NCBI GenBank assembly: GCA_964413875.1
Contig: CAYPUA010000012.1
Span: 8,068-72,067, forward strand
Reading direction: 5' to 3'
DNA: 64,000 bases
From: an uncultured Bdellovibrionales bacterium
GTDB taxonomy: Bacteria; Bdellovibrionota_C; UBA2361; OMII01
Below, one piece after another: positions 1 through 12,968 of the stretch; position 1 is the first letter of the stretch; every line of letters starts with the position of its first letter. The notes under the pieces were generated by a model. That model was not told where the DNA came from and made no database searches. It saw only the letters and a list, made by a program, of their open reading frames with translations. The translations under genes and the position numbers were made by a program.

Positions 1-1529
1 TCAGCCGGGCTTAGTTCCTTCGCCTCAAGCAGTTCCGAGAGGTACAACGAACGAATTTGGGGAACAGCCGCCATGATGGCGATTGTCGACTGCTCAATCG
101 GCTCCGGAGCTCTGCCAACCTCTTTGGCTGCGTTCGAATACAGCGGGCGGAATAGATCTACCCTCTGAAGATCCAGCCCCAGCGCCGCAGCTAGCTGTGC
201 GGTACCCAACCTGTCGCCCTGATACCCCTGCTGCAGTAGCTCTACACGAGTGCTGTCCGAGATCGACGGATTGAGGATCTTCAGGGCAATCGGAGCATTG
301 CCAGCCACCAGCATTGAAGGGTTTGGGCTAGCCGACCAGTCACGTACAAGGTCCGAGGAGCGAATTAACCCGAGTCGCCGAGATCTAGCAGTAACTATCT
401 GGAGAATCTCCTTCCTCTCGCCTGCGTCTCTCGCCTCCGCGGCGAATCGCAACAACGATTCGTGAGCCATCGGATCGTCAGAAGCGGCCAACGCCTGAAT
501 CTCTCCCCGTAGAGCTACTGGTGTCGAACCTGCGCCGAAGAATCGCTGGAGACCGCCAGGCTGCAGAACACTGAGCCCCACAAGTAGGCCGATCAGCACC
601 GCGAGAGTTACCAACACGATCGTTCCAGTTCTCCTGCCCCGAGGGGCAGACTTGAAATCGATCACCACACTCTCTGACTCGACATCTCTGGCTACAGAAG
701 CCACTTTTTTTGGCGCACCGACCAAGACCTCAGAGCGCTCTCGGAGTATCGCCTGCATCAGCGCTGTCGCGGTCTGCGGTCGATCCTCGGCAGCGCAAGA
801 AAGAATCGGGAGGACCGCAGGATTGAACCAACTCGGGGCTCGGTCGAGCGGAGGAAAATTCGTGTCAACACGGCGCTCCACACTACGGGCTGTTTCGACA
901 AGTGGCTTTGCGGAGAAGAAGCGGTATGAAAGTCGCGCGAGCGCAAAGACGTCGGTGTTAAACGCGCCAGATGGCTCCTCAATTTGCTCGGGCGCGAGGT
1001 ACATATGAAGCTCTTGAGCCTCCTCGAGCGGTGCTGCTGTGAAGAGCTCAGACCCGGAAGTGAGAATTCCTAGTCCGCCGAGAAAGCGAACTTCTCCGCC
1101 ACTCGTGAGAAGAAATGATTCGAGGCAAACATCTCCACAGGCGACGCCGGCTTTATGCATCCGCTCAACTGCTCGGACGCAGCCAAGCCATCGGCGCTCG
1201 GCTTCCCGTCGATCGACTCGACCCTCAAGTATGTGGCGTCCTGAGAAGAGTCGGAACGAGATCCATCCATGTCGCATAGGGTCGAGCCCAAAAGCGATCA
1301 CCTCTGGCTGACCCGGGACGGCACAGAGCTGATCGGCTCGGCGTAGAAACCGATCGACTGCTTCAGGCGATAGCGGCCCCCGCGAAATCCACAGAGCCAC
1401 GCTGCTACGAGACGCTCGGTCGATTGCTTTGAAGGTTTGTCCGGAGAGCGAGTACGCCAACCGAGCTTCTAGGGTAAACCGCTCTTCTATCGGAACCGAC
1501 AGGTCAGCGCGCCTACTCTCTGACTGCAT
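1..1529 (-). CDS. Membrane-anchored pseudokinase: degenerate Hanks-type Ser/Thr-kinase-like cytoplasmic domain, single TM helix, extracytoplasmic C-terminal region. Start codon in window; 3' end lies beyond the window start.
   Basis: Translating the minus strand by hand from ATG 1527-1529 gives an uninterrupted frame of ~510 codons running off position 1. It is not in the ORF track, presumably because no stop codon lies within the window. The N-terminal ~280 aa show kinase-fold landmarks with catalytic residues replaced: 'VALW' in place of VAIK, 'HKAGVACGDVCLESFLL' in place of HRDLKPENILL, 'FLGGLG' in place of DFG, and an APE-like 'YLAPEQI'. A hydrophobic helix 'TIVLVTLAVLIGLLVGLSVL' follows. 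The translation was done by eye, so individual residues are approximate. Confidence 0.5.
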   Translation of the reverse strand, partial: MQSESRRADLSVPIEERFTLEARLAYSLSGQTFKAIDRASRSSVALWISRGPLSPEAVDRFLRRADQLCAVPGQPEVIAFGLDPMRHGWISFRLFSGRHILEGRVDRREAERRWLGCVRAVERMHKAGVACGDVCLESFLLTSGGEVRFLGGLGILTSGSELFTAAPLEEAQELHMYLAPEQIEEPSGAFNTDVFALARLSYRFFSAKPLVETARSVERRVDTNFPPLDRAPSWFNPAVLPILSCAAEDRPQTATALMQAILRERSEVLVGAPKKVASVARDVESESVVIDFKSAPRGRRTGTIVLVTLAVLIGLLVGLSVLQPGGLQRFFGAGSTPVALRGEIQALAASDDPMAHESLLRFAAEARDAGERKEILQIVTARSRRLGLIRSSDLVRDWSASPNPSMLVAGNAPIALKILNPSISDSTRVELLQQGYQGDRLGTAQLAAALGLDLQRVDLFRPLYSNAAKEVGRAPEPIEQSTIAIMAAVPQIRSLYLSELLEAKELSPA

Positions 1530-1714
1530 GATGTCCACCTAGTGCGCCCCCTACTACTGCCTCGTTGAGAAAGTTTTTCCACCTAACGACGTTGCAGCCT
1601 TGAACGATGCAGTAGCCATATCTAGCGTGTTTTCGGCGCGAAAGGCGCCGAACGCGAACAACCCTAGCGCTGCCTTTAACGGAATGAAGGTGATAAGACT
1701 TTTTGACAGCATCA

Positions 1715-3826
1715 CTACCGCGATACCAGCCCCCACAAGCCAATCTGTTCAACCCGAATTGCTGGGTCTAACTCACCGAAGGTAAGCACGAAGAGCTTCT
1801 TAGCAGCGCCACGAGTGACGGAAAGAACCTTCGCTTTAGTATCCTCTGAGCACAGGATCGCGACCGGAACAACGCCAAGTTCGAGGGTCGGCTTCAAAAC
1901 CGCTTGGAGTCCGTTACAGAGGGCGTCGTAGGTTTCAGGCTCGACTGCGAGCGGTAACGACTTCCCTCCGAGCTCCGCTTCCTCAAGCACCTGTTCGACC
2001 TCGGCTGCCAGCGAAATGACGCGCAGCGATTTTGCCGGACCGATAAACCGGCGTAGCACCTGCCTTCGTCGGCCCGAGCGGATGTGATCAACGACGCTTG
2101 ACGCATTTACTGTACTCTCATTATCGAGAGTGACCCCGCTTGTGGAGCAGTACGAAGCGACTCCTTCAGCCACCGCGCGGAAGTCTCGAACACTGATCCC
2201 CTGCCTGATTAATTCCTGAAGAATCTCGGCTAGCTTTGGAACAGATACGAATTCACGCCCGAAGCCCTCCCCGATCAGTCCCGGATGCCGCTTCTCTACT
2301 TGCCGCAAGAGCGAGTGGACGTCTGTCGCAGAGATGAACTCCTCTGGATGTTGGAGACAGAAGCTAGCTATCCGGAGTCCGATGTACTCGAAGAAGTCGT
2401 AGCTCTTAATCGATGCCGCATCGAGCATTTTGCGAACTTTTGGGGAGTTGCTCGTCCAGAATATCTTGTGACCGGAAACCGGATGCTCCTCAGTCAGCAA
2501 GACATTGAGGCCAAGCATTGGCGCCTGCGATGAGGAGATCTCAACGAGGAGAGCATCTGGCAACACACGACCCGAGAACATCTCTACCCCACCATGCGTA
2601 ACGCGGTACGAGGACGCCGCGCCGAGTTCATCAGTGACTACCCGGACGTTCGGCATCAACAAGCCGACATCTCCAAATAGCGCTGCACGGAACTGCGTCC
2701 ACCAAGCCACATATCGAGGCACCGCATTACGGTACGAACGGAAGAGCACCGCGGCGTCGAGAGACACCTCTATGCTCTCTGCGTCACTATCGAGCTCTGA
2801 GCCAGAGCCCTGAGGCTGCGGCAACCCCGTCATACGCGAGAAGTCGGTCTGCTGAAGCGCCATCCCCGCCTGACTGCGAAGCCGTCGCGTCAACACCAGC
2901 CCTGCGCCTGCCGCGACGACACCAACCGCCATGAAAGGAAGCGTGGGGATACCCGGAAGCACACCGAAGACCGCCAGGATGCCGGCAGTCACGAACAGCA
3001 CTACCGGTTGGGCGAACAGCTGCGCTCTCAGGTCAGAGCTCAAACTTGAGTTCTCTGACGAAGAGACGCGAGTCACGATAATACCGGCACAGATGGATGT
3101 CAGGAGACTCGGAATCTGCGTGACGAGCCCATCACCAACCGTCAGGACCGTGTAGGTCTGGACTGCGTCGGAAACTGACTGCCCCGACGAAATGCCCATG
3201 AACATGCCACCACAGATATTGACCAGAATGATGAAGAGGCCGGCGATCGCGTCGCCCTGCACAAACTTCATTGCTCCGTCCATCGAGCCGTAGAGCTGCG
3301 ACTCTCTCCGAAGCTCATCTCGCTTGCGCCGAGCCTCCTCCGCCGAAAGCAGCCCGGCTCTCACATCGTTATCAATCACGAGCTGCTTTCCGGGAAGCGC
3401 ATCGAGGGCGAACCTTGCTGCCACCTCCGAAACGCGCATCGCGCCCTTCGAGATGACGATAAAGTTCACCACCGTAACGATCGAGAAGATAATAATACCG
3501 ACGAGAATCTCGCCTCGGATGAGAAACGTTCCAAAGGCTTCGATGACCTGGCCTGCGTTTCCTTCGCTGAGAATCAGTCGAGACGATGCCACGTTGAGTC
3601 CGAGGCGAAAGAGCGTACTGAGAAGAAGAATAGTTGGAAACGTGTACAGGGCCGCGGAATTGGCGACGTACAGGCCAACAAGCAGCAGCAAGATGGAGAA
3701 AGAGAGGTTTACGACCAGCAGGATGTCGAGCAGCGGCGTGGGCAGAGGCACTATCAGCATAGCTGCGATGGCAACCACGAGCGCCATGAGCACAAAATCT
3801 GAGTAACGCAACCGGCCCTGCATCAT
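1715..3826 (-). CDS. flhA: FHIPEP-family export-gate protein (FlhA / SctV type): 8-TM N-terminal domain plus large cytoplasmic C-terminal domain.
   Basis: 703-aa ORF. It contains a near-perfect FHIPEP signature 'RVSEVAARFALDALPGKQLVIDND' (compare R-[LIVM]-[GSA]-E-V-[GSA]-A-R-F-x-L-D-[GSA]-[LM]-P-G-[KR]-Q-M-x-I-D). The N-terminus resembles FlhA ('LPLPTPLLDILLVVNLSFSILLLLVGLY', 'TFPTILLLSTLFRLGLNV'). A cytoplasmic domain of ~370 aa follows. The gene is on the same strand as tadC and begins 42 bp after it. Confidence 0.85.
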   Translation of the reverse strand: MMQGRLRYSDFVLMALVVAIAAMLIVPLPTPLLDILLVVNLSFSILLLLVGLYVANSAALYTFPTILLLSTLFRLGLNVASSRLILSEGNAGQVIEAFGTFLIRGEILVGIIIFSIVTVVNFIVISKGAMRVSEVAARFALDALPGKQLVIDNDVRAGLLSAEEARRKRDELRRESQLYGSMDGAMKFVQGDAIAGLFIILVNICGGMFMGISSGQSVSDAVQTYTVLTVGDGLVTQIPSLLTSICAGIIVTRVSSSENSSLSSDLRAQLFAQPVVLFVTAGILAVFGVLPGIPTLPFMAVGVVAAGAGLVLTRRLRSQAGMALQQTDFSRMTGLPQPQGSGSELDSDAESIEVSLDAAVLFRSYRNAVPRYVAWWTQFRAALFGDVGLLMPNVRVVTDELGAASSYRVTHGGVEMFSGRVLPDALLVEISSSQAPMLGLNVLLTEEHPVSGHKIFWTSNSPKVRKMLDAASIKSYDFFEYIGLRIASFCLQHPEEFISATDVHSLLRQVEKRHPGLIGEGFGREFVSVPKLAEILQELIRQGISVRDFRAVAEGVASYCSTSGVTLDNESTVNASSVVDHIRSGRRRQVLRRFIGPAKSLRVISLAAEVEQVLEEAELGGKSLPLAVEPETYDALCNGLQAVLKPTLELGVVPVAILCSEDTKAKVLSVTRGAAKKLFVLTFGELDPAIRVEQIGLWGLVSR

Positions 3827-3868
3827 GCTAAATCGGACTCCCCTTTCACCACCTGTGCCATCACTACA

Positions 3869-4789
3869 TCACATAGACGTTACGATCTGAAGTCCGAACC
3901 CGATCAAGAGTATGGCGAGGTATCCGAAGAATACCAGCGCCACGGGAGCAGTAGCTGCTAGCTCAAGTTTTTTGATCTTCTCCTCAATGCGAGCCTCACG
4001 CTGAGACGAAACGCTGTCTGCCAAATCTTGAAGCTGCTTACTGATCTCTCCACCGTGCTTGGCGACCTGCGAGAGCGCCAGGAAGGCATGCTTAAGGTCG
4101 TTGTGCCCCTGAAGCTGCCCTACTTCGGTTAGTGCTTCTTCAAGGCTCGAACCTGACTTTATGTGGAATTGCGCATACCGAAGGAGCTCTGTAACGGGGT
4201 TATGAGTATCACGCTCGTCGGCCATCTGAACGATCCGCATGAGGCACGGTCCGATATCGAGGGAGCTGCTAACCCCGATCGATACCTGTTCGATTACGAG
4301 TGGTAAGTAGAACAAGATCTCATCTTGGCGGCGATTGATTCGGCGCTCAAGGACCTTGAAGGGAATATAGAGCCCAAGAATTAAACCTACCAATGCAAAT
4401 AACAGCACCTGCTGCGTCCCCCCGAGCCCCTTGCCGAGGAGAGCTAAGACTACCACTGATATAATCGGAACCATCACCTGCAAGCGTTTGAAGTCGGACT
4501 TCTGCTTGCTGGAAAAAATGCCGGCCCGGAAGAGCTTCTCCTCTAGTGATGGCTCCCCTCCCTTTTTCTTTTCCTTGATCACTGACTTCCGAAGGCGATC
4601 TAGCTCCTCACCACTCTCGTCCTTCTGTATGCGCTGACGAAGCTCAGCCATCGACTGGCTGTACTGCTCAGCCGCCATCAGGCCCCGGTAGCTTCGCTGC
4701 GTCGCCGAGTAACGTTGGTACAGCAGGTAGCCCCCGGTAACTATCGCTACGATCGCTGCAATGACTGGAACGAGAAGCGATGAGTCCAT
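3869..4789 (-). CDS. tadC: Tad/Flp pilus assembly inner-membrane platform protein TadC-like (T2SS-F/GspF fold).
   Basis: ORF 3869..4867. I trimmed the start to the Met of 'MDSSLLVPVIAAIVAIVTGG' (ATG at 4787-4789) so that it begins 4 nt after the tadB stop at 4794. TM helices and a TadC-like C-terminal half ('LEEALTEVGQLQGHNDLKHAFLALSQVAKHGGEISKQLQDLADSV'). Confidence 0.8.
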   Translation of the reverse strand: MDSSLLVPVIAAIVAIVTGGYLLYQRYSATQRSYRGLMAAEQYSQSMAELRQRIQKDESGEELDRLRKSVIKEKKKGGEPSLEEKLFRAGIFSSKQKSDFKRLQVMVPIISVVVLALLGKGLGGTQQVLLFALVGLILGLYIPFKVLERRINRRQDEILFYLPLVIEQVSIGVSSSLDIGPCLMRIVQMADERDTHNPVTELLRYAQFHIKSGSSLEEALTEVGQLQGHNDLKHAFLALSQVAKHGGEISKQLQDLADSVSSQREARIEEKIKKLELAATAPVALVFFGYLAILLIGFGLQIVTSM

Positions 4790-4793
4790 GGTC

Positions 4794-5780
4794 CTATACC
4801 TTGAGCTTTGTAACCTGCCTGACCCAGAAAATGCCGAGGAGAATGGCGCACACCCCACCCTGACCAACCATGCGGCCCGTCGGATGTGTCCAAGTCAGAA
4901 CAACACACTGCGGCCACGTGAAGTACATGTAGAGTTCAAGCGCAGCAAGCACCCCAAGAATGAACCAGATAGAGCCTCTCTGTTGTCCAACCGCTGCGTT
5001 CGCAGCCTGCCGAAAGTACTGACGACGCCGAACCTGTCGAGCGAGCCGATCGAGCGTGTCGGAGAGGTTTCCGCCAACCCGCTTGCTGAGGATTAGAGCC
5101 TGCACGAAAAGCTCAATCTCAGGGTGGTAGATATCTTCTCCAAAAGAGCCGATGGATCGCTCCTCCGAAACGCCCATCCGAAGACGTTCAAGCATCAGGT
5201 CAACTTCACGTTTCACGAGCGAGCCTTCCTCTAGCCCGCTTGCAGCTGCCTGAAGGGCCTGCGTCACATTGAGGCCGGTCTTTATCATTCCCACAAAGCT
5301 GAGCAGAAACTGCGGAAAGTCGCTGTCAAACCTCATAAAGCGGTTGTTGATGCGGCGGTTGAGAAGCCAGTTCAGAAGCAGCGGTCCTGTAAAGAGCGAG
5401 ACGACCTGCAACATAGTATCGAAGTACAGTCGGGTAACGAGGAACGCGAGCAAACTGACTATTATTTGGGCCAGGCTGAATGCGTACGGAGGTATGTGAG
5501 ATAGCTCGGCGAACTTTAACCGCTTGCGGATTGTGAGCTGCGTATCAGAGACTTTCTCGACCGCTATTTGCTCCAGGGCCGTACTCGTAATAGAGGCGGC
5601 AGCTTCTCCATTTTCTAGGCCCGCCTCCGCACGCTGGAGCTCAACTATCGAGCGCATCTGACGGCGAAGAGTCATCGGAGAGACAGCTCTGCCAGAGATC
5701 GGGAGGCGCATGATGAGCGCTGCGGCGAGCACCACCGCGATCACTCCAGCAACTATGGCGAGCACAGCCATCGGTTCCAT
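4794..5780 (-). CDS. tadB: Tad/Flp pilus assembly inner-membrane platform protein TadB-like (T2SS-F fold).
   Basis: 328 aa with an N-terminal TM helix. Typical TadB motifs: 'FPQFLLSFVGMIKTGLNVTQALQAAASGL', 'ALILSKRVGGNLSDTLDRLARQVR'. Begins 10 bp after the cpaF stop. Confidence 0.8.
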   Translation of the reverse strand: MEPMAVLAIVAGVIAVVLAAALIMRLPISGRAVSPMTLRRQMRSIVELQRAEAGLENGEAAASITSTALEQIAVEKVSDTQLTIRKRLKFAELSHIPPYAFSLAQIIVSLLAFLVTRLYFDTMLQVVSLFTGPLLLNWLLNRRINNRFMRFDSDFPQFLLSFVGMIKTGLNVTQALQAAASGLEEGSLVKREVDLMLERLRMGVSEERSIGSFGEDIYHPEIELFVQALILSKRVGGNLSDTLDRLARQVRRRQYFRQAANAAVGQQRGSIWFILGVLAALELYMYFTWPQCVVLTWTHPTGRMVGQGGVCAILLGIFWVRQVTKLKV

Positions 5781-5790
5781 GACGCCAGCG

Positions 5791-7353
5791 TTATCCTCCC
5801 TTGAGCGTTACCCCAATAATCGGCGCGAAGGTAATCTCCGGTGGTGAGTCACCGAGGAAAATTCCGTCTGCCTTTAGCTGCTCATCAAAATTGCTCGACC
5901 ACGATTCAACGCGCCACAAGGGCTTCGCCCCCTGCTTTATGAGTGAGAACATCGGGCGAACCTGTATTGTGCCCTCAACGAAATGTCCTACTTCTATCAC
6001 TTCGGCGATTCGAGGCCTGCCGGTACTCTTCTCGCGAATCAGCCAAACGACGCAGTCCACTGCGAGCGCTATCTGCTGCCGAATGATGTCTATGGCGACG
6101 GACTTCTGAGCTCTGCCCAGTAGGCTCTCAAGACGCACAAGCGTCTCTCGGGCGTTGCGCGCGTGGATAGTGGACATACCCACGTGGCCGGTCTGTGCGC
6201 TCTCCAGAAATGCCTCGGCCGCGAACGGGGTTCGCATCTCTCCAAGGATAACTCGTGTTGGAGTCATTCGGAGTGTTGTCTTGATATGCTCCTGGAGCGT
6301 TACCTCGCCAGCTCCCTCGGAATTTGCGGGGCGTGACACGAGCGAGCGAAAGTAAGGGTGTTGGAAATTGAGCTCTGGGGTGTCCTCAACCGCAACGATC
6401 GACTCACTAGAGCCAAACTGCGTGGCGAGACACTTTATCAGGGTTGTCTTTCCTGTTCCGGTCTCCCCGGCCACCATCATCGTAGCGAGTCCGCAGCGCA
6501 CCAGAGAGGCTAGGTAGTTCACGATCAGGGGCGGTGCAACCTGGTAGGCGATAATGTTCTCAAGGCTTGCCTCGCTGATGCGTGGAATTCGGATACACAG
6601 TAGTGGCCCACGCTGGCCACACACACTCTCATGCACCGCGCAGAGGCGCACACCGTTCGGAAACGACGCATCGACCGTGTGCTGCTGTGTCGTGAGTGAC
6701 TTGCCAAGCCGCAACAGGAGCCGATCAATGAAGGTTACGTACGCTTGCTGATTCGGCCAACTGAGGCCGGTAGTCTCACTGATCTTACCGCGCTGCAGCA
6801 CGACCGTCTTGTAGTCGTAGACATGGATGTCAGTTACATCCCGGTTGTCCATAAGGGGCTGCAGAACACCCCACCCCACCAGGTCTTTCTGGAGGTGAAT
6901 GATGATATTCACGCGCTCGATATCGTCGAGCGCTTCGCCACGCTTGCGGATGACTCGGTCAACTGCCTGAGCGATAACCTGCTCGGTCGCAGCAACAGTC
7001 GTCATCTGCTGCTGGAGAGTAAGGTCACTTCCGAGCTCGCGGCGGGCCTCGCGCATGACTGTCGATGCTGCTGCAGACATCTCCTGGGTTTTCGTCGCAG
7101 CAGGTTTAGCTGGCTGTTGAGCGGGCTGTGGCGCTGCGCTTTCTGCTGGGGCGGTGGCCTTGGCTTGGTCGGTTGCGGGCTTATCTGAAGGACTGCTGCC
7201 GCGTGCTGGACCCGAGCCCTCCGAACCTGAGCTGCGCCCGTGCGATGCTCGGGTCGAGAAGAGCCCAAGCAGGTCGTCTTTGGTATCTTTTTTTGAGCCT
7301 GACATAACCTTGCTCTCCAGTGCCTGCCTCGTTGCAAGAAGCAGCGCACGCAA
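5791..7353 (-). CDS. cpaF: CpaF/TadA-type secretion ATPase (T2SS-E / VirB11 superfamily) with a long low-complexity Ser/Ala/Pro-rich N-terminal extension.
   Basis: Walker A 'GETGTGKTTL'. Conserved CpaF blocks: 'IVAVEDTPELNFQHPY', 'TPTRVILGEMR', 'GHVGMSTIHA'. The first ~130 aa are a low-complexity A/P/S/Q-rich region; an internal start is possible. Confidence 0.9.
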   Translation of the reverse strand: MRALLLATRQALESKVMSGSKKDTKDDLLGLFSTRASHGRSSGSEGSGPARGSSPSDKPATDQAKATAPAESAAPQPAQQPAKPAATKTQEMSAAASTVMREARRELGSDLTLQQQMTTVAATEQVIAQAVDRVIRKRGEALDDIERVNIIIHLQKDLVGWGVLQPLMDNRDVTDIHVYDYKTVVLQRGKISETTGLSWPNQQAYVTFIDRLLLRLGKSLTTQQHTVDASFPNGVRLCAVHESVCGQRGPLLCIRIPRISEASLENIIAYQVAPPLIVNYLASLVRCGLATMMVAGETGTGKTTLIKCLATQFGSSESIVAVEDTPELNFQHPYFRSLVSRPANSEGAGEVTLQEHIKTTLRMTPTRVILGEMRTPFAAEAFLESAQTGHVGMSTIHARNARETLVRLESLLGRAQKSVAIDIIRQQIALAVDCVVWLIREKSTGRPRIAEVIEVGHFVEGTIQVRPMFSLIKQGAKPLWRVESWSSNFDEQLKADGIFLGDSPPEITFAPIIGVTLKGG

Positions 7354-7654
7354 TCCCTTCAGAAAAACCTAGCGGGCACCTAGTTTCGGCCCCCGAGTGC
7401 ATCGGTCCCCTAATGGTATGTTCGGCTGTCGATAAAGTTTTGCTTAGGCATTGTGTCGTAATTCCAGGTACTAACGACGTCTCTAGTGATGGGTCTGTTG
7501 AGCTATCGAGCCAGCAGGGTTAACGCCGATAGCTATAGCTGTTGTAATTACAGGTGCTTAGTGGTCCTAATGAGCGGGCGTCTGCTACAAATGGCTGTCC
7601 CACCGAAAAGCGACGGGGAGCGCCTCAGTTCACTAATACCGTTCTAGTGGTCCC

Positions 7655-8614
7655 TCACTGCGGCTTACCGTTGAGAGCCGCCACCTCTTCGGGAGACAGA
7701 AGCTTTCCGGCCACGATGAAGTAGTCTCGACCTCCAACCGTTACCTTCCCCTCAGTCTGTACCTGCTGCGTCGGTTGCTTTGTGCCGACTCCGAGAATCG
7801 TCTCTATTCCGATGGTGGTGTTCTGGGGCGACTCCACGGTGTCTTCGTCTCCGCGCAAGGCGAGGCTCAGCGTCCCCGCTTTAGCGGCGAGCTGAATCTT
7901 AGCGGCATCGTCTCCGGTAACCATCAGGGTGACTGTTGTCTGCGCTTTCGGATCTGAGGGAGAGGCACCTGGCTCTCCTGAGGTACTACGAGAAGCCGAT
8001 AGAACCTTCGCATTCTGGACAATGACTGTAAGCGTTGGCTTCTGAACTCGAGTTGGAGAGAGCATCACGTCTACTTTTGCGCCAGCTCGCGCCCATCCCT
8101 CCACGCTGGTGGTGGAATCAACAGACATAGTCACTGCGCGAAATCCATCTGGGATTTTCGCCTGAATCTGGTTGAGCGGCGGGTTGGAGGTAATGTAATC
8201 GAGCATCACAGGCTCTCCCGCGGCGATAAAAGAAGCTGCGTACGCTGAGCGGAGCTGGTCAAAGCTTGTCACGATATTTGCGCTTCCTCCTACTATCGCT
8301 CGGGTCTCTTTCCGAAACATGCTCGGATCAAGCTGCATACCGGTATCGATTTTCTGGATCGGAACAAGCACGTCGAGCGTCTCTGTGACAGGCTGCGGGA
8401 TGGACTGGGCTGTTTGCTGTGGTCCGGAGCTCGATGTTTTGCCGATGACGTAGAAGACCACGATGCCGAGGCACAAGAAGAGCAGGGCCAACAACACGAG
8501 GGTTGTGACGGGGGAATTGCCTTTCTGACTTTTTAGCGGACGAGAATTGCTAGTGGGCATGGCCCTCAGAGGTGTTCTGTTTTCAAAATTTATGAACTCG
8601 CGGGGTGTTGTCAT
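7655..8614 (-). CDS. cpaB: CpaB/RcpC-family Flp pilus assembly protein.
   Basis: N-terminal TM helix 'VTTLVLLALLFLCLGIVVFYVIG', followed by a CpaB-like periplasmic region ('TLTVIVQNAKVLSA...TVTLMVTGDDAAKIQLAAKAGTLSLALR'). An alternative start is at the Met of 'MPTSNS' (8560). Confidence 0.75.
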   Translation of the reverse strand: MTTPREFINFENRTPLRAMPTSNSRPLKSQKGNSPVTTLVLLALLFLCLGIVVFYVIGKTSSSGPQQTAQSIPQPVTETLDVLVPIQKIDTGMQLDPSMFRKETRAIVGGSANIVTSFDQLRSAYAASFIAAGEPVMLDYITSNPPLNQIQAKIPDGFRAVTMSVDSTTSVEGWARAGAKVDVMLSPTRVQKPTLTVIVQNAKVLSASRSTSGEPGASPSDPKAQTTVTLMVTGDDAAKIQLAAKAGTLSLALRGDEDTVESPQNTTIGIETILGVGTKQPTQQVQTEGKVTVGGRDYFIVAGKLLSPEEVAALNGKPQ

Positions 8615-8740
8615 AACCTACGACGCAGAAAGGGGGCCTTCGCAACGCGAAAGCCCCCTCCTGGTTCAGCAGCGCAGCACAAGGCTTGAATGGCGAGCAA
8701 CTGCCACCAACCGGAGCTTGCGCGGGCAAGTAACAGATTA

Positions 8741-8920
8741 CTAGTTAGCACCCGTAATGGCGCTGGAAGCCGAGCTGAACTTTCCGGTGATTGAAGTCCC
8801 CAGCGTGGTAACTGCCGCGATGGCAACAACCGCGATCAGCGAAACGAGTAGCGCGTACTCCACCATCGATGCTCCACGCTCAGAGCGTGCGTCATTCTTA
8901 ACCATCTCATCCTTTTTCAT
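8741..8920 (-). CDS. flp: Flp/Fap-family pilin precursor (59 aa). Not in the ORF track because it is shorter than 60 aa.
   Basis: Manual minus-strand translation gives MKKDEMVKNDARSERGASMVEYALLVSLIAVVAIAAVTTLGTSITGKFSSASSAITGAN. It contains the Flp prepilin signature (G/ASMVEYALL followed by a hydrophobic helix). It lies directly upstream of cpaB on the same strand. Confidence 0.7.
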   Translation of the reverse strand: MKKDEMVKNDARSERGASMVEYALLVSLIAVVAIAAVTTLGTSITGKFSSASSAITGAN

Positions 8921-9105
8921 AACAACCCTATCGTTCTAAGTTACCCGTTAGCTGCCCGAAGGCAATCCTAAGAGAGCTGGTTGGAACACATTGGGGCTTT
9001 CCAACACTCCTGCCGTAGGAACCGGCAGGACCCGCGAGCCACCCCAGCGTAATCGCGCCAGGTGCAACCTCACAAGAGCCTTTTTATTCTACCATCCGAC
9101 CCTAC

Positions 9106-9127
9106 GGGCTTCGAAGCCGATTTTTTC
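9106..9127 (+). terminator. Intrinsic-terminator-like element on the plus strand (perfect 6+6 palindrome GGCTTCGAAGCC followed by a T6 run) inside the tadZ-flp intergenic region.
   Basis: 'gggcttcgaagccgattttttcg'. Two more hairpins lie upstream on the same strand: gttggaa/ttccaac at 8980-9005 and cctgccg/cggcagg at 9009-9029. No plus-strand gene lies upstream of it. Confidence 0.3.
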
Positions 9128-9170
9128 GCATCTCGCCAGAATAACAGACACAAACCGAGTCCGAGGGGTG

Positions 9171-9199
9171 AAAAACCATTTAGCGCAGACACTTGCGCT
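9171..9199 (-). terminator. Candidate rho-independent terminator downstream of tadZ on the minus strand.
   Basis: Hairpin AGCGCA-GACACT-TGCGCT (9182-9199). In the minus-strand transcript it is followed by AAAUGGUUUUUCAC. The stem is short (6 bp). Confidence 0.3.
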
Positions 9200-9253
9200 C
9201 GACCACGGCATCATTTGACGGAGCTCTAACTGCGGTCGCTACCGCTCTCATAC

Positions 9254-10543
9254 TCAGCGGGTCGAGGCCTCGCCCTTCCTCCCGAACATGCGAGAGAGCC
9301 AGCTTGATGTGGTGTTGGCGCGGGGTCGCAGGGGGCGCCCCGATCCATCAGGAGCGCCTGGCAGCAGAGCGGTGGTATCCTCGACCCCTATCAATCCTAG
9401 TTCTCGGGCGACCTTGTCGAGCGTTTGGCGCATGGACTTGCTACCCATGCTGTACAGCGTTTGACTACTACCTGCCCAAAGGGCTGCCTTCGTCTCAAAC
9501 GGGAGGGCGGGCAACCTCCAGGGCGCTGCCCCGAGCCGATGAGCGGGCTCCAGCTCAGCCGCAATCTGCTGCACCGTCATCAGTGCGTTCGAGCAAGGGT
9601 TTACGAGGAAGCAGAGTCGGTCGGGGCTACCCACCAGATTCTTGATAAAGTTGAGATAAAGATCGACGGCCGTTAGACCTAAAATCGTGTCGTCGATTAC
9701 CACAAGCACTACATCCGCGCTTCGGATGAGTGCACCGGTAGCTGGCCCCAGCCTGCCGCAGGTATCGATCAAGATGACATCGAAGAGCACTCGAGAGAGT
9801 TCGAGGATGCGTTGCGCAATCCCGATACCATCGGCGTGACATACGAGGTCAATTGACTCCGCGAATTTATCCGGAGCCATCAACACAGAAACCTCACTCG
9901 AGATCGGAACGAGCGCATCTCGCATCGACTCGCGATCTATTTCTCTGCTGCCGTTCACCCAAGCGCTGATTACCTTCGCCTCAGCTCCGGTTACCGTCAG
10001 GGAACGACTTAGGTCATGCGTCTCGACGTCAAGGTCCCACAGCATAGTGCGGCGGTTGTAGACACTGCAAACCTCCGCAAGAGCAGCCGTAGCAGACGTG
10101 GCTCCCACTCCGCCTTTCGCCTGCACTACCGCCACGACTCGTCCCTCGTGAGTCCGCCCTTCCTTTCGGAAGTCTGAGTGGATTGCAACGAGCTCCTGTA
10201 AGAAGTCGAGTGGGCTGGCACTATCCGGAAATACTTTTCGAACACCAACCGAATGGGCAGACCGAAACGCCCCACCTCCGTAGGAGCTATCGCTCACAAA
10301 CATGACGATCTGGATCCAGGGTGCAAGAACCTGTGCCTGGCGTGCGATGGCGATCGCTCGCTCGCCCACACCGGATCCAATGACAAGAACATCGGCCTCA
10401 ACGACGCGCTCAGAGAACTCCTGCTCGTTAACAAGCTTAACCTTGAGATCGAGCATCTCCATGTCACTGCGACTGAACGACTCTACTCGTCTAGCGCAGA
10501 AGGCCTGAGATTCGTTTGAGCTATCAACAATGAGAAGTTTCAT
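9254..10543 (-). CDS. tadZ: TadZ/CpaE-type pilus-assembly localisation protein: atypical receiver-like N-terminal domain plus ParA/MinD-like ATPase domain.
   Basis: 429 aa. N-terminal 'MKLLIVDSS...' CheY-like fold. Deviant Walker A 'VVAVVQAKGGVGATSATAALA', in which the second Lys of KGGxGKT is replaced by Ala. MinD-like core 'VILIDTCGRLGPATGALIRSADVVLVVID'. Confidence 0.75.
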   Translation of the reverse strand: MKLLIVDSSNESQAFCARRVESFSRSDMEMLDLKVKLVNEQEFSERVVEADVLVIGSGVGERAIAIARQAQVLAPWIQIVMFVSDSSYGGGAFRSAHSVGVRKVFPDSASPLDFLQELVAIHSDFRKEGRTHEGRVVAVVQAKGGVGATSATAALAEVCSVYNRRTMLWDLDVETHDLSRSLTVTGAEAKVISAWVNGSREIDRESMRDALVPISSEVSVLMAPDKFAESIDLVCHADGIGIAQRILELSRVLFDVILIDTCGRLGPATGALIRSADVVLVVIDDTILGLTAVDLYLNFIKNLVGSPDRLCFLVNPCSNALMTVQQIAAELEPAHRLGAAPWRLPALPFETKAALWAGSSQTLYSMGSKSMRQTLDKVARELGLIGVEDTTALLPGAPDGSGRPLRPRANTTSSWLSRMFGRKGEASTR

Positions 10544-10552
10544 GACGGGTTG

Positions 10553-12007
10553 CTAAAAAAGCTTCTCCAAAAGCCCCGGAGCGAAAAGCTTCAGGAACAC
10601 AAAACCAAAACCTATCCCCACAAGCGCGGCACCACCCATGGCAATCGCATCACCGACCATCGTGCGCTTTGACACCTCTGGCTCGGCGTACTTTTTAGAC
10701 AGAGCTGCGAACTGGCCGGGGGCCGGCCCTTTGCGTTGCCCCGCTCTCGGCGTGCTCCCCCAATCGTCAGACACAACATCTGGGGCTGGCTCTACTCGCG
10801 CTCCACCCGGCTTCGTCGAACCAGTTGATCGATTCTGAGACTCAAGTGCTTGGCCGACGTACGACGCGTCAAGAACTTGGGTGTTTGCCTTCTCAATCAC
10901 CTGGTCTCCGTCCGTGCCACTCCGCACCCGCGTGCCGCCGCCGCGACCGAGCATGGCCCCTGACGTGACTTGCGTATCACCGATAGGTCCCGCCGACACC
11001 GCGATATTCGTCTGTCGCCCCCCTGTCGGCGGAGCTGCATCAGCAGGAGCGTCCGAAGGCCCATCGCTGAGAGAAGGGCCAACGTACGGGGTCCCTTGCC
11101 CAGCTCCCTGGTTCGGCAAAAACAAGCCGCCAGTGATTGCAGAGCGCAGTCCTAAGTCCGACGCTAGCTTCTGCAGATCAAAAAACATGTCCATTCCTGC
11201 TTGGTAGCGACTTTCGGGCTCCCGCTGCATCGCTTTGAGGATGATTGTATCCAGGCCCGCTGGACACTCTGGCCGCAGCTTGCTGGGGGACTCTGGATCG
11301 GTCTTCAGACGCTTGGTCATCGTCGCGTAAACGCTATCGCCGCGGAACGGGGACTCACCCGTCACCATCTCGTACGCAAGGATCCCAATCGCATAGATGT
11401 CTGATCTCCAATCGACTTGCGAGCGCAGCATGTACTCAGGCGCCACGTAGTCGATCGTTCCGACAACTCCTCCATGCTCAGTGAGCTTCGGGCCGTGGCG
11501 ATTTCTTGCGATTCCGAAGTCCGCAATCTTTACATTCCCCTCGTTGGTCAAGAGAATGTTCTCTGGCTTAAGGTCTCGGTGCACGATACCGGCATCGTGA
11601 ATAGCTTGCACACCTGCCGCCATCTGACTCAAGACGCGGATAATTTCAGCGATTGGCATCCGCTCTGGGTGACCGAGTCGTTCCGCGAGGTCGCCTCCTC
11701 CAACGAACTCCATCGTGTATGCGACGAGATCCCCGTCGCGGAGATACTCGTACGCTCGCACCACGTTCGGATGGGAAACACCGTAAGAGGCAAGGATCTC
11801 ATTGCGGAATCGAGCTGAAGCGACCCGATCCTGTGCGACCTCAGGGAAGAGCACTTTCGCCGCTACCATCTGCCCCTGCAGCTCCCGATGCCGGCAGGCG
11901 TACACCAACCCCATGCTACCGGAGCCGAGGCACTTGACGACCTCGTACTTACCCCCAATCACGGTACCCGGCTGGAGGCTAATGATATGCTCGTCGGTCA
12001 TGGTCAC
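10553..12007 (-). CDS. Hanks-type Ser/Thr protein kinase with a disordered linker and a C-terminal TM anchor.
   Basis: Intact catalytic motifs: 'GSGSMGLVY', 'VAAKVL', 'HRDLKPENILL', 'DFG', 'GTIDYVAPE'. C-terminal hydrophobic 'AIAMGGAALVGIGFGFVFLKLFAP'. Confidence 0.9.
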   Translation of the reverse strand: MTMTDEHIISLQPGTVIGGKYEVVKCLGSGSMGLVYACRHRELQGQMVAAKVLFPEVAQDRVASARFRNEILASYGVSHPNVVRAYEYLRDGDLVAYTMEFVGGGDLAERLGHPERMPIAEIIRVLSQMAAGVQAIHDAGIVHRDLKPENILLTNEGNVKIADFGIARNRHGPKLTEHGGVVGTIDYVAPEYMLRSQVDWRSDIYAIGILAYEMVTGESPFRGDSVYATMTKRLKTDPESPSKLRPECPAGLDTIILKAMQREPESRYQAGMDMFFDLQKLASDLGLRSAITGGLFLPNQGAGQGTPYVGPSLSDGPSDAPADAAPPTGGRQTNIAVSAGPIGDTQVTSGAMLGRGGGTRVRSGTDGDQVIEKANTQVLDASYVGQALESQNRSTGSTKPGGARVEPAPDVVSDDWGSTPRAGQRKGPAPGQFAALSKKYAEPEVSKRTMVGDAIAMGGAALVGIGFGFVFLKLFAPGLLEKLF

Positions 12008-12026: not shown

Positions 12027-12959
12027 CTACCCTTGTGAGGAATTACCCATCACGAGACAGACATGAAAATTACGATCCCCGAAGCTTACGATATCGCCAT
12101 GGCTCAACACCGCTTTCTCGCCAGACAGTAGAATCTCCTCTCCTGTGTCGAACTTGCGTATACGGGTGCCACTCTCTGAGAGCTGGTCGAGCACCTGAAT
12201 CGAACCGCCAGCGGCAACGCGCATGACCGCATGCGAAGGCGAAACACTTTCGTGATTCAAAACGAGACAATTGCTTGCCGGATCTGGCTGGGCTGAAACA
12301 ATGAGTCGCCCAGTTCTCAGCTCCAGGTACGACCCTGCTGGCTCATAGTCGAACGAAACGAGGAATCCCACCAGCTGTGTGCAGGACTTCCAGTATACCT
12401 CTTCGGCTCCAACTGCAGCTTCTGTCAGCATATGTTCCTCTGGGACATGAACAAACTCCGGTGCCGGGTCGGGGGTAAACGGTGCTGGTTCTGGGATCGC
12501 ACGGTGTTCGGTCACAATGTCTCCTGAGCTGGCGAAGAGCCCAAGCGGATCCCACATTGGAGGCTTTCCCCCGCCTTCTATCACGTCAGTATCGTGCGGC
12601 ACCGACTCAATTGCTTCGGCTTCTGACACTTCAGAAAGTTCTCCGTCCGCATACACGGATTGACCAGTGGCAACCTCTTCATCTCCCGGCTCAACTACCT
12701 CTGCCACCGGAGCAACTGGGGCTTTTCTCACTCCCATATCGCTACTAACTCGCGGGGTCTCCCAGTGAGCTTCATCAGCCTGAACAGGGGCCTCCAAGCC
12801 GCCAATCCGGCTACCCTGAGATTCTCCGCCCAAACGAGCACGCATACCTCCGGTGAGGTTTGAATCGAGAATGACCGTATGGTTCTTAGCCCGGTTTGCG
12901 CTCCCCTCGCGAACGCGCGGGGTAGAACCACGAGGCAATTTGCTACTACTGTCTTCCAT
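12027..12959 (-). CDS. FHA-domain protein (disordered acidic N-terminal region, C-terminal FHA domain).
   Basis: The C-terminal ~100 aa match the FHA fold: '...GRLIVSAQPDPASNCLVLNHESVSPSHAVMRV...GEKAVLSHGDIVSFGDRNFHV'. Confidence 0.8.
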   Translation of the reverse strand: MEDSSSKLPRGSTPRVREGSANRAKNHTVILDSNLTGGMRARLGGESQGSRIGGLEAPVQADEAHWETPRVSSDMGVRKAPVAPVAEVVEPGDEEVATGQSVYADGELSEVSEAEAIESVPHDTDVIEGGGKPPMWDPLGLFASSGDIVTEHRAIPEPAPFTPDPAPEFVHVPEEHMLTEAAVGAEEVYWKSCTQLVGFLVSFDYEPAGSYLELRTGRLIVSAQPDPASNCLVLNHESVSPSHAVMRVAAGGSIQVLDQLSESGTRIRKFDTGEEILLSGEKAVLSHGDIVSFGDRNFHVCLVMGNSSQG

Positions 12960-12968
12960 CGTCCTCTC

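What the first reader, a model, noticed from the sequence alone, without database searches (positions are those of the whole stretch)
1..1529. Unlisted gene for a transmembrane pseudokinase immediately downstream of the Tad/FHIPEP operon
A ~510-codon open frame on the minus strand runs from ATG 1527-1529 off the window start. It is absent from the ORF track. Its N-terminal domain has the Hanks-kinase fold landmarks but has lost the catalytic Lys (VALW), the HRD Asp (ACGD) and DFG (LGG), which makes it a pseudokinase. A TM helix and a long extracytoplasmic domain follow. An active TM-anchored Ser/Thr kinase, an FHA protein and a PP2C sit at the other end of the same cluster (10.5-14 kb). The machinery is therefore bracketed by an active kinase and a membrane pseudokinase. 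A pseudokinase sensor/scaffold coupled to a pilus-like secretion apparatus would be unusual.
Basis: partly seen in the sequence, partly recalled or inferred. Interest (0 to 1): 0.6.

Follow-up and report, generated by a model that had tools for sequence, protein, structure and literature searches.

The report
Membrane pseudokinase beside a pilus/secretion operon
The open frame is a real gene for a membrane protein with a catalytically dead kinase domain inside the cell and a helical-repeat domain predicted to lie outside; it always sits next to a type-III-secretion gate gene at the end of a Tad pilus operon in uncultured Bdellovibrionota-labelled bacteria (a phylum of predators), so it may link or regulate the two machines.

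Summary
The minus strand from 1529 to 1 is open for 509 codons, and the full protein is 756 aa. It has a confidently modelled protein-kinase fold (best PDB matches M. tuberculosis PknA/PknB), one TM helix, and a 420-residue HEAT/ARM-like solenoid predicted to be periplasmic. In 142 full-length relatives the beta3 Lys (Trp instead), alphaC Glu, catalytic-loop Asn and DFG Asp are never present. The gene is under purifying selection (dN/dS 0.15). The family is unannotated and has at least 224 clusters at 50% identity. In all 18 loci examined it lies immediately downstream of an SctV-like FHIPEP gene that ends a Tad operon. In four distant loci, SctD-like FHA proteins and SctJ/Q/R/S/T/U follow directly, making one Tad plus T3SS-like supercluster. 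The partner active kinase is tail-anchored and has no sensor domain. Most likely the protein is a non-catalytic membrane scaffold or transducer, analogous to EssB/YukC of the Gram-positive type VII system. That would make it a new variant of a known kind, in a context relevant to how predatory Tad and needle-less T3SS machines are coupled. No function was tested.

The parts
1..1529 (-). First 509 codons of a 756-codon gene for the pseudokinase-TM-solenoid protein. The rest lies beyond the window start.
   Evidence: Open frame. Full-length P0001 is 100% identical. dN/dS is 0.15 against the L005 orthologue.
729..1517 (-). Cytoplasmic pseudokinase domain (residues ~5-267), with a bilobal kinase fold. 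Beta3 reads VALW (W47), alphaC has R64, the catalytic loop reads ACGDVCLES (D133 retained) and the DFG position reads GLG. APE, the alphaF Asp (D193) and R250 are retained.
624..728 (-). Disordered Ser/Thr/Arg-rich juxtamembrane linker (residues ~268-302), ending in the positive cluster RGRR.
   Evidence: pLDDT below 50. K/R enrichment on this flank.
564..623 (-). Single transmembrane helix (residues ~303-322, TIVLVTLAVLIGLLVGLSVL).
   Evidence: Mean Kyte-Doolittle hydropathy 2.95, with no second hydrophobic segment. A TM helix is present in 142/142 family members.
1..563 (-). Start of the predicted periplasmic HEAT/ARM-like alpha-solenoid (residues 323-509 of a domain that runs to residue 756). 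It contains the invariant motifs SDDPxAHE, RxRRLGL and ALKxxNP.
1535..1540 (-). Shine-Dalgarno-like AGGTGG, 5 nt upstream of the ATG.
   Evidence: Sequence. The GGTGGA core is invariant in L001, L005 and L006.
1542..1698 (.). Window-specific insertion of ~160 bp in the FHIPEP-pseudokinase spacer. Relatives have 7-57 bp in most loci.
   Evidence: Alignment. It is unique in the window, has no terminator or promoter consensus, and its fold gives z=-0.77.
1715..3826 (-). FHIPEP gene (SctV/FlhA family export-gate protein, 703 aa), the invariable upstream neighbour.
   Evidence: Pfam 584 bits. NCBIfam SctV scores 566 bits and FlhA 518 bits, both below their equivalog cutoffs. Synteny holds in 18/18 loci.
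3869..7353 (-). TadC-like gene (3869-4867), TadB-like gene (4794-5780) and CpaF/TadA ATPase gene (5791-7353).
   Evidence: Pfam T2SSF, T2SSF and T2SSE. NCBIfam TadA family.
7655..10543 (-). RcpC/CpaB gene (7655-8614), Flp pilin gene (8741-8920, 59 aa, G/ASMVEY motif) and TadZ/CpaE-like AAA_31 gene (9254-10543).
10553..12007 (-). Active Hanks-type Ser/Thr kinase with all catalytic motifs intact. It is tail-anchored by a C-terminal TM helix with only ~10 residues beyond it, so it has no sensor domain.
   Evidence: Pfam 179 bits. Sequence. The tail anchor is conserved in 7/7 evaluable loci.
12027..14018 (-). FHA-domain protein gene (12027-12959; FHA at residues 228-294 with G-R and S-x-x-H retained) and PP2C phosphatase gene (12969-14018).
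   Evidence: The FHA domain is 31-37% identical to the SctD-like FHA proteins of L016/L018.

Best explanation
The gene encodes a bitopic inner-membrane protein. An N-terminal Hanks-type kinase domain that cannot catalyse phosphotransfer faces the cytoplasm, one TM helix follows, and a ~420-residue HEAT/ARM-like solenoid faces the periplasm. It is a conserved accessory subunit of a Tad pilus / T3SS-like apparatus in uncultured bacteria whose MAGs are labelled Bdellovibrionota, and it is always encoded directly after the SctV-like export gate. Most likely it is a non-catalytic scaffold and transmembrane transducer. The solenoid would contact a periplasmic part of the machine or the envelope. The pseudokinase domain would act as a docking surface in the cytoplasm. 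Its partners would be the tail-anchored, sensor-less active STK (as a kinase:pseudokinase pair, giving that kinase a sensor domain in trans) and/or the FHA-domain proteins encoded beside it. PP2C would reverse the phosphorylation. Shown by computation: the gene is real and under selection; the kinase fold; universal loss of four catalytic or ATP-binding residues; one hydrophobic TM segment per protein; the solenoid fold; strict synteny with FHIPEP. Inferred: N-in/C-out topology, lack of ATP binding, every protein-protein contact, and the direction of signalling.
For: Real gene under selection: open frame; dN/dS of 0.15 overall and 0.10 for the kinase-like domain; 224 clusters at 50% identity with E<=1e-30, nearly all 750-900 aa with end-to-end matches. 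Kinase fold. Dead active site across 142 members: Lys 0 (Trp 130), alphaC Glu 0 (Arg 118), catalytic-loop Asn 0 (Ser 129), DFG Asp 0. No column of the domain reaches 60% Lys, so a WNK-like rescue lysine is unlikely. Topology: one TM helix in 142/142; K+R of 3.46 on the N flank against 1.77 on the C flank (N>C in 105, N<C in 14); the N-terminus does not look like a signal peptide (sequence). Ectodomain: pLDDT 89, pTM 0.81, 27 helices, Pfam HEAT_2 hits in relatives above the cutoff, and only generic HEAT/ARM matches in PDB. Machine association: FHIPEP lies immediately upstream on the same strand in 18/18 loci, mostly 7-57 bp apart. In L013, L015, L016 and L018 the next genes are two FHA/YscD-like proteins and then SctJ, SctQ, SctR, SctS, SctT and SctU. 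Split-receptor logic: the active STK has every catalytic motif but only 12-22 residues beyond its C-terminal TM helix in 7/7 evaluable loci. The STK is present in every locus that extends far enough upstream to show it. The window FHA domain keeps G-R and S-x-x-H. Precedents: the YukC/EssB pseudokinase domain binds the FHA domains of the T7SSb ATPase and acts as the interaction hub (PMC9600267); the MviN pseudokinase is phosphorylated by PknB and recruits FhaA (PMC12599244).
Against: No interaction, localisation or nucleotide-binding data exist, and everything mechanistic is inferred from sequence, models and gene order. No Thr is invariant in the cytoplasmic part, so a fixed pThr docking site for FHA is not supported; Thr in the linker (136/142 members, median 4 per 60 residues) is close to background. 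The retained HRD-position Asp, the invariant alphaF Asp and the conserved Ser-Phe in the catalytic loop show that the pocket is constrained for something, which might be a ligand or a different chemistry. The protein evolves 3-6 times faster than the core machine genes. That fits an adaptor or sensor but is not expected for a rigid core subunit. HEAT-type solenoids are uncommon in the periplasm, and no dedicated topology predictor was available. Complex modelling with the STK, FHA proteins or SctV was not possible with these tools.
Confidence: 0.55

Rival explanations
1. Purely structural hub (strict EssB/YukC analogue). The protein is a stoichiometric building block that holds the SctV gate, and where present the SctD/SctJ rings, to the Tad inner-membrane platform. 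The STK/FHA/PP2C module regulates something else and never touches it.
For: Adjacency to FHIPEP is tighter (18/18 loci) than to any other gene, and the protein stays with FHIPEP when the rest of the T3SS-like set is absent. In the supercluster loci it sits between SctV and the SctD-like genes. YukC binds FHA domains independently of phosphorylation (PMC9600267).
Against: dN/dS is 3-6 times higher than for FHIPEP, CpaF, TadB and TadC, which is unusual for a core structural subunit. The STK is also conserved in the cluster and conspicuously lacks a sensor domain, which invites a partner.
Confidence: 0.25
2. Phospho-acceptor decoy or adaptor, like the MviN pseudokinase. The STK phosphorylates Thr residues in the disordered juxtamembrane linker. 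The FHA proteins then dock on those pThr sites to switch the machine on or off, and PP2C resets the system. The pseudokinase fold is only a platform, and there is no allosteric effect on the STK.
For: STK, FHA and PP2C genes lie in the same cluster. The linker is disordered and rich in S/T/R. The FHA domain keeps G-R and S-x-x-H. The MviN-PknB-FhaA precedent applies (PMC12599244).
Against: No conserved Thr exists in the linker or the domain. The window FHA has Ser where canonical FHA domains have the Asn of the NGT motif (the canonical motif is from general knowledge).
Confidence: 0.12
3. Atypical active enzyme. The kinase-like domain keeps the catalytic-loop Asp and uses a non-canonical nucleotide-binding mode or a different chemistry, as SelO and SidJ do or as Mg-independent kinases do.
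For: The HRD-position Asp is retained in 128/142 members. The alphaF Asp is retained in 140/142. G-D-x-x-x-x-S-F is strongly conserved.
Against: The beta3 Lys, alphaC Glu, catalytic-loop Asn, DFG Asp and glycine-rich loop are all lost together in 142/142 members. A bulky Trp occupies the Lys position, and for the comparable GLW family the review authors consider such a residue likely to block ATP binding (PMC12599244). No compensating Lys is conserved.
Confidence: 0.06
4. Decaying remnant of a kinase gene, with no function.
For: Catalytic residues are lost, and the gene evolves faster than its neighbours.
Against: There are no stops in 756 codons. dN/dS is 0.10-0.16. The same substitutions are fixed across at least 224 clusters down to ~20% identity. 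Architecture and position are conserved.
Confidence: 0.02

Closest known systems
EssB/YukC, the membrane pseudokinase of the Gram-positive type VIIb secretion system (PDB 6Z0F; PMC9600267), and its structural homologue TraF of the pIP501 T4SS (PMC13037476)
   Same: Cytoplasmic N-terminal pseudokinase with a degraded active site, a single TM helix and an all-alpha extracytoplasmic domain. It is encoded inside a secretion-system cluster, and FHA-domain proteins are partners or neighbours.
   Different: There is no detectable sequence relationship: no YukC-type Pfam hit at E<=1, and the best structural matches are PknA/PknB, not EssB. The ectodomain here is a ~420-residue HEAT/ARM solenoid rather than 8 helices. 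The organism is a diderm, and the machine is Tad plus T3SS-like. An active STK and a PP2C are co-encoded.
GLW pseudokinase family of the bacterial STK atlas (PMC12599244; bioRxiv 10.1101/2025.01.12.632604)
   Same: [quoted passage not shown]
   Different: GLW is defined by G-L-W replacing H-R-D, with 99-100% of members lacking the Asp. This family has (C/L)-G-D with the Asp kept in 90% of members. No HEAT ectodomain or secretion-system context is reported for GLW. A direct sequence comparison was not possible because no GLW sequence was available.
MviN (MurJ) pseudokinase domain with PknB and FhaA in mycobacteria (ActPs3 family; PMC12599244)
   Same: A membrane-tethered pseudokinase working with an active Hanks kinase and an FHA protein.
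   Different: In MviN the pseudokinase is fused to a polytopic flippase in an actinobacterial cell-wall pathway, with a defined pThr site. Here no conserved Thr was found.
Threonine-phosphorylation pathway of the P. aeruginosa / Agrobacterium T6SS (PpkA-Fha-PppA; PMC3953482, discussed in PMC8460266)
   Same: An STK, FHA and PP2C trio encoded with, and presumably gating, an envelope-spanning nanomachine.
   Different: PpkA carries its own periplasmic domain (general knowledge). Here the active kinase is tail-anchored without an ectodomain, and a separate pseudokinase carries the ectodomain.
Myxococcus xanthus Kil (Tad-like) system with the needle-less T3SS* (PMC8460266, PMC12075869, PMC10433427)
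   Same: A Tad-type pilus machine associated with a T3SS-like inner-membrane export apparatus that lacks needle and secretin genes. FHA proteins are over-represented, and the lineage is predatory.
   Different: In Myxococcus the two systems are encoded at separate loci, and no kinase or pseudokinase component is described in the papers read. Here the genes are contiguous in some lineages, and the pseudokinase sits at the junction. The CpaF here has a low-complexity N-terminal extension rather than KilF's FHA domain.

Membership tests
Hanks-type (eukaryotic-like) protein kinase superfamily | Bilobal protein-kinase fold | tested here: met
   In the AF2 model, residues 5-267 mostly have pLDDT of 80-94. 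The top Foldseek PDB hits are PknA/PknB, with E of 1.6e-7, target TM-score up to 0.69 and ~274 columns.
Hanks-type (eukaryotic-like) protein kinase superfamily | Sequence match to Pfam PF00069 at the gathering threshold | tested here: not met
   20.3 bits against a cutoff of 31.7, C-lobe only. Homology is nevertheless clear at profile level, where the family profile hits kinases at 90-150 bits.
Pseudokinase (lacks at least one of VAIK-Lys, HRD-Asp, DFG-Asp) | Beta3 (VAIK) Lys absent | tested here: met
   W47 in this protein. Lys in 0/142 members, Trp in 130/142.
Pseudokinase (lacks at least one of VAIK-Lys, HRD-Asp, DFG-Asp) | DFG Asp absent | tested here: met
   GLG in this protein. Asp in 0/142 members.
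Pseudokinase (lacks at least one of VAIK-Lys, HRD-Asp, DFG-Asp) | HRD Asp absent | tested here: not met
   C-G-D, with D133 invariant in the close family and present in 128/142 members. This feature is not required for the label, because one missing residue suffices.
Pseudokinase (lacks at least one of VAIK-Lys, HRD-Asp, DFG-Asp) | No ATP binding or phosphotransfer | not testable with these tools
   Needs biochemistry. Inferred from the joint loss of the glycine-rich loop, Lys, Glu, Asn and Asp.
GLW bacterial pseudokinase family | G-L-W replaces H-R-D, and the HRD Asp is lost | tested here: not met
   The positions are C80/L38, G132 and D128 of 142. A literal GLW string occurs in only 12/142 members, and in the one member inspected (P0010, GLWCGD) it precedes the G-D rather than replacing HRD.
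GLW bacterial pseudokinase family | [quoted passage not shown] | tested here: met
GLW bacterial pseudokinase family | Sequence clustering with a GLW representative (MBH9021688.1) | not testable with these tools
   The sequence is not held, and no supplements are available.
EssB/YukC family | Pseudokinase, one TM helix and a helical extracytoplasmic domain | tested here: met
   This is a resemblance of architecture only.
EssB/YukC family | Sequence or closest-structure relationship to EssB/YukC | tested here: not met
   No such Pfam family appears at E<=1. No EssB/YukC structure is among the best 50 Foldseek matches, which are canonical kinases.
EssB/YukC family | Binds FHA domains of a machine component | not testable with these tools
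   Only gene adjacency to FHA/YscD-like genes is available.
HEAT-repeat proteins (Pfam PF13646 HEAT_2) | Match at the gathering threshold, and an alpha-solenoid fold | tested here: inconclusive
   P0001 scores 23.8 bits against a cutoff of 27.7. Relatives score 33.9, 29.7 and 28.3 bits. The model is a 27-helix solenoid, but PDB matches are generic, with E>0.001 and TM-score <=0.33.
STK-FHA-PP2C threonine-phosphorylation module (T6SS TPP type) | Active Hanks kinase, FHA protein and PP2C phosphatase co-encoded with the machine | tested here: met
STK-FHA-PP2C threonine-phosphorylation module (T6SS TPP type) | The kinase carries its own periplasmic sensing domain | tested here: not met
   The STK is tail-anchored with 12-22 residues beyond the TM helix.

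The most novel reading that the evidence does not exclude
The protein is the physical and regulatory coupler of a hybrid nanomachine, in which a Tad pilus platform and a needle-less T3SS-type export gate are assembled and fired together. The merged Tad-SctV-pseudokinase-SctD/J/Q/R/S/T/U loci would then be the single-locus form of what Myxococcus runs as two separately encoded systems (Kil and T3SS*). The window's lineage would be a reduced form that keeps only SctV and the pseudokinase on the Tad operon. The pseudokinase ectodomain would report envelope or prey contact. Its dead kinase domain would activate the tail-anchored STK, so that FHA/SctD-like proteins lock the two machines together.
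Probability: 0.2. Interest if true: 0.85.

Novelty: new variant of a known kind. Interest (0 to 1): 0.6.

Why it matters
Bacterial pseudokinases are almost unstudied experimentally, and the only well-characterised ones tied to secretion machines are Gram-positive (EssB/YukC, TraF). This is a sizeable, unannotated family in diderm bacteria, with its own active-site signature (Trp for the beta3 Lys, and C/L-G-D...S-F). It is genetically tied to an SctV-type gate and a Tad pilus operon. Current reviews state that co-occurrence of the predatory Kil/Tad system and the needle-less T3SS* is confined to one myxobacterial suborder, and that how the two machines associate is unknown (PMC12428579). Contiguous Tad plus T3SS-like loci in MAGs labelled Bdellovibrionota, with this protein at the junction, widen that distribution. 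They also nominate a concrete, testable candidate for the link and for contact-dependent signalling through the STK/FHA/PP2C module.

Tried and rejected
(1) Single-sequence Pfam was too weak to settle the kinase fold, so I replaced it with PDB phmmer, structure prediction and a family profile.

(2) The word-indexed homologue search suggested a tiny family of 11 clusters. The exhaustive profile search showed at least 224 clusters. A third word-indexed search with a 121-sequence profile was swamped by true kinases and gave no organism names.

(3) GLW-family membership was considered and rejected on its defining motif.

(4) WNK-type rescue by a lysine elsewhere: K34 is invariant in the close family, but it is Lys in only 60/142 members overall, and no column reaches 60% Lys. 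Rejected.

(5) The pseudogene reading is rejected by dN/dS and breadth of conservation.

(6) I tested the ~160-bp spacer insertion as a repeat element, terminator, promoter or structured RNA. It is unique, has no consensus sites, and folds no better than shuffled sequence (z=-0.77).

(7) A fold search of the ectodomain alone gave only generic solenoid matches.

(9) I looked for other T3SS genes in the window and found none.

(10) Literature searches for a pseudokinase or FHIPEP gene in Tad or Kil clusters found nothing.

(11) Cluster-member look-ups gave only 'hypothetical protein' or, for one JGI entry, 'serine/threonine protein kinase'.
Full report
**1. The observation**

The reverse complement of window 1..1529 translates into 509 codons without a stop, starting at ATG 1527-1529. 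An AGGTGG Shine-Dalgarno sequence lies 5 nt upstream (1535-1540), and its GGTGGA core is invariant in three relatives. The frame is missing from the ORF list only because that tool omits ORFs that run off the end of the source. A 756-aa protein identical over all 509 residues is on record (P0001), so the window holds the N-terminal two thirds of the gene.

**2. Is it kinase-like?**

- A single-sequence Pfam scan is weak. Pkinase scores 20.3 bits against a gathering cutoff of 31.7 (E=4e-4) and covers only the C-lobe.
- BLASTP against the neighbouring active kinase aligns 90 residues around the catalytic loop (E=1e-4).
- phmmer against PDB sequences finds M. tuberculosis PknA over residues 11-210 (E=1.8e-5).
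- An AlphaFold2 model built on the 11-sequence family alignment has mean pLDDT 81.7. It shows a beta-rich N-lobe with an alphaC helix and a helical C-lobe (residues 5-267), a disordered linker, a helix at 303-322, and an all-alpha region at 337-756.
- Foldseek against PDB gives more than 1600 kinase-type matches at E<=0.001. The best are PknA (6b2q) and PknB (1mru), with E~1e-7, target TM-score 0.60-0.69 and ~274 columns. TYK2 JH2 pseudokinase structures are also listed.
- A profile of 121 family members hits bona fide kinases at 90-150 bits.

The kinase fold and homology are therefore secure.

**3. Is it a pseudokinase?**

I aligned the domain with the neighbouring STK and three other active kinases, then extended the alignment to 142 full-length family representatives.

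| Motif | Active kinases | This protein | Family (n=142) |
|---|---|---|---|
| Glycine-rich loop | GxGxxG | degenerate | mostly degenerate |
| Beta3 Lys | K | W47 | K 0, W 130 |
| AlphaC Glu | E | R64 | E 0, R 118 |
| HRD | H-R-D | C-G-D | H 0, R 0, D 128 |
| Catalytic-loop Lys | K | C | K 0 (C or S) |
| Catalytic-loop Asn | N | S138 | N 0, S 129 |
| DFG Asp | D | G | D 0 |
| APE, alphaF Asp, subdomain-XI Arg | retained | retained | P 134, E 125; D 140; R 126 |

No position in the domain has Lys in 60% or more of members, so a WNK-style substitute lysine is unlikely. By the usual sequence definition this is a pseudokinase. Absence of nucleotide binding is inferred, not shown.

**4. The rest of the protein**

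Each of 142 members has exactly one strongly hydrophobic segment (mean hydropathy at least 1.6, median 2.5). K+R is enriched on its N-terminal flank: 3.46 against 1.77, with N>C in 105 members and N<C in 14. The N-terminus does not look like a signal peptide. The inferred topology is therefore pseudokinase in the cytoplasm and C-terminal domain in the periplasm.

Modelled alone, the C-terminal 422 residues form a 27-helix solenoid (pLDDT 89.3, pTM 0.81). Pfam HEAT_2 matches the last ~50-60 residues. The match is below threshold in this protein (23.8 against 27.7 bits) and above it in three relatives. Foldseek finds only generic HEAT/ARM solenoids such as PP2A-A, importin-alpha, AP2 and designed repeat proteins, with no match at E<=0.001 and TM-scores of 0.33 or less. 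The fold class is clear, but no specific relative is solved.

**5. Is it a functional gene?**

| Gene or region (window against L005) | dN/dS |
|---|---|
| This gene, codons 1-509 | 0.15 |
| Kinase-like domain | 0.10 |
| Ectodomain part | 0.16 |
| FHIPEP | 0.024 |
| TadB | 0.031 |
| CpaF | 0.039 |
| TadC | 0.062 |

The gene is under purifying selection but evolves several times faster than the core machine genes. The identity figures agree: 79% for this protein against 93-97% for its neighbours.

**6. Family size and annotation**

The word-indexed search found only 11 clusters. The exhaustive profile search of 1.84 billion representatives found 224 with E<=1e-30, nearly all 750-900 aa and matched end to end. 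Where sources name members they say 'hypothetical protein', and in one case 'serine/threonine protein kinase'. No NCBIfam model covers the protein. Genome records carrying it are MAGs labelled Bdellovibrionota, Bdellovibrionales, Deltaproteobacteria or Pseudomonadota.

**7. Genomic context**

In the window the minus-strand cluster reads, in order of transcription:

- PP2C (12969-14018)
- FHA protein (12027-12959)
- active STK (10553-12007)
- TadZ-like (9254-10543)
- Flp pilin (8741-8920)
- RcpC (7655-8614)
- CpaF (5791-7353)
- TadB-like (4794-5780)
- TadC-like (3869-4867)
- FHIPEP (1715-3826)
- this gene (1529 to the window start)

The same order holds in all 13 loci first fetched and in five more from distant family members. 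FHIPEP is the immediate upstream neighbour in 18/18 loci, mostly 7-57 bp away.

The FHIPEP protein scores nearer SctV (566 bits) than FlhA (518 bits) and is below both equivalog cutoffs.

In the window's clade and in L017, unrelated genes follow: a thioredoxin-family gene, then tig, clpP, clpX and lon in the window's clade, or a hybrid histidine kinase in L017. In four distant loci (L013, L015, L016, L018) the gene is followed directly by two FHA/YscD-like proteins. After those come SctJ, a YscO/FliJ-like protein, SctQ, SctR, SctS, SctT and SctU. The pseudokinase there sits at the junction of a Tad operon and a T3SS-like gene set. No needle or secretin gene is visible in the 10-kb flanks. The window's 64 kb contains none of SctD, J, Q, R, S, T or U.

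**8. The partner kinase**

The active STK has intact GSGSMG, VAAK, alphaC Glu, HRDLKPEN, DFG and APE motifs. Its only TM helix is at the extreme C-terminus, with 12-22 residues beyond it in 7 of 7 evaluable loci. The catalytically competent kinase therefore has no sensor domain, while the dead kinase carries a large ectodomain. The window FHA domain keeps the G-R and S-x-x-H motifs. It is 31-37% identical to the FHA domains of the SctD-like proteins of L016/L018.

**9. Most likely mechanism**

I read the protein as a non-catalytic, bitopic scaffold or transducer of the Tad/T3SS-like apparatus. The periplasmic solenoid would bind a periplasmic element of the machine or the envelope. In the cytoplasm, the pseudokinase domain would dock the tail-anchored STK (supplying its missing sensor in trans), the FHA-domain proteins, or both. 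PP2C would reset the system.

The fold, the dead active site, the single hydrophobic TM segment, the solenoid, selection and synteny are shown by computation. Topology, lack of ATP binding and every contact are inferred.

Rivals are:

- a purely structural hub that is independent of phosphorylation;
- an MviN-like phospho-acceptor that recruits FHA, weakened by the lack of any conserved Thr;
- an atypical enzyme using the retained Asp, weakened by the joint loss of five other elements;
- a decaying gene, rejected.

**10. Comparison with what is known**

- **EssB/YukC.** This is the closest functional precedent. It is a pseudokinase-TM-helical-ectodomain protein that is the interaction hub of T7SSb, and its pseudokinase domain binds the FHA domains of the ATPase (PMC9600267). 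TraF of a Gram-positive T4SS is a structural homologue (PMC13037476). The resemblance is architectural: no sequence relationship was detected, and the best structural matches are canonical kinases.
- **GLW family.** Among the seven catalogued bacterial pseudokinase families, GLW shares the Leu/Trp at the beta3 Lys position and the C-terminal TM helix. It is defined by GLW replacing HRD with loss of the Asp, which is not the case here (PMC12599244).
- **MviN-PknB-FhaA, and the T6SS PpkA-Fha-PppA pathway.** These are regulatory analogues.
- **Myxococcus Kil and T3SS\*.** The Kil (Tad-like) system and the needle-less T3SS* are recruited together at prey contacts. Their association mechanism is called an open question, and their co-occurrence is said to be restricted to Cystobacterineae (PMC12075869, PMC12428579). 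No kinase or pseudokinase component is mentioned in the papers read.

**11. Verdict**

The 'pseudokinase' reading is well supported, but the 'unusual' claim needs tempering because membrane pseudokinases in secretion machines are known. What is new:

- an unannotated, sizeable diderm family with its own active-site signature and a HEAT-like ectodomain;
- its strict tie to an SctV-like gate at the end of a Tad operon;
- its position at the junction of merged Tad/T3SS-like loci.

I rate it a new variant of a known kind, with moderately high interest. The interest comes chiefly from the candidate it offers for coupling and controlling predatory Tad and T3SS-like machines.

Noticed in passing
window 1715-3826 (-); loci L001-L018: An SctV/FlhA-family FHIPEP gene is the penultimate gene of a Tad pilus operon, with no FliP/Q/R or FlhB genes in the window's 64 kb. 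It scores nearer SctV than FlhA but below both NCBIfam equivalog cutoffs. An export-gate protein kept with a Tad operon is odd in itself.
   Followed up: partly
L013:12515-18307, L015:5922-15678, L016:12668-21939, L018:12689-22172: In distant relatives the Tad operon runs straight into a T3SS-like gene set: two FHA/YscD-like genes, SctJ, a YscO/FliJ-like gene, SctQ, SctR, SctS, SctT, SctU and a small TPR protein. No SctN ATPase, needle or secretin gene is visible within the fetched flanks. A 2025 review says Kil plus T3SS* co-occurrence is restricted to one myxobacterial suborder.
   Followed up: partly
window ~1542-1698: A ~160-bp insertion in the FHIPEP-pseudokinase spacer is absent from relatives L001, L005 and L006. 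It contains an 8-bp GC hairpin (GTTCGGCGCC TTT CGCGCCGAA, 1632-1653). It is unique in the window, has no promoter or terminator consensus, and its fold is not better than shuffled sequence.
   Followed up: yes
window 10553-12007 (-), C-terminal ~35 codons; also L001, L003, L006, L008, L011: The active STK ends in a conserved tail anchor (...ALVGIGFGFVFLKLFAPGLLEKLF), leaving 12-13 residues outside in these loci. In L016 and L018 the tail differs in sequence but has the same layout.
   Followed up: partly
window 5791-7353 (-), first ~120 codons: The CpaF/TadA ATPase carries an N-terminal Ala/Pro/Gln/Ser-rich low-complexity extension instead of the FHA domain reported for Myxococcus KilF.
   Followed up: no
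window 15735-16907 (-): A second PP2C-type phosphatase (SpoIIE family, 157 bits) lies ~1.7 kb upstream of the PP2C-FHA-STK genes. Between them are a DUF2231 membrane protein gene (15161-15709) and an unassigned 175-aa ORF (14422-14949).
   Followed up: no
window 1-25400: No secretin (RcpA/CpaC) or prepilin peptidase (TadV/CpaA) was recognised among the genes scanned by Pfam in and upstream of the Tad operon. The gaps at 7354-7654 and 8921-9253 hold no convincing ORF.
   Followed up: partly
window 1-1529 compared with 1715-7353; L005: The pseudokinase gene evolves 3-6 times faster (dN/dS 0.15) than the FHIPEP, CpaF, TadB and TadC genes in the same operon (0.02-0.06).
   Followed up: yes
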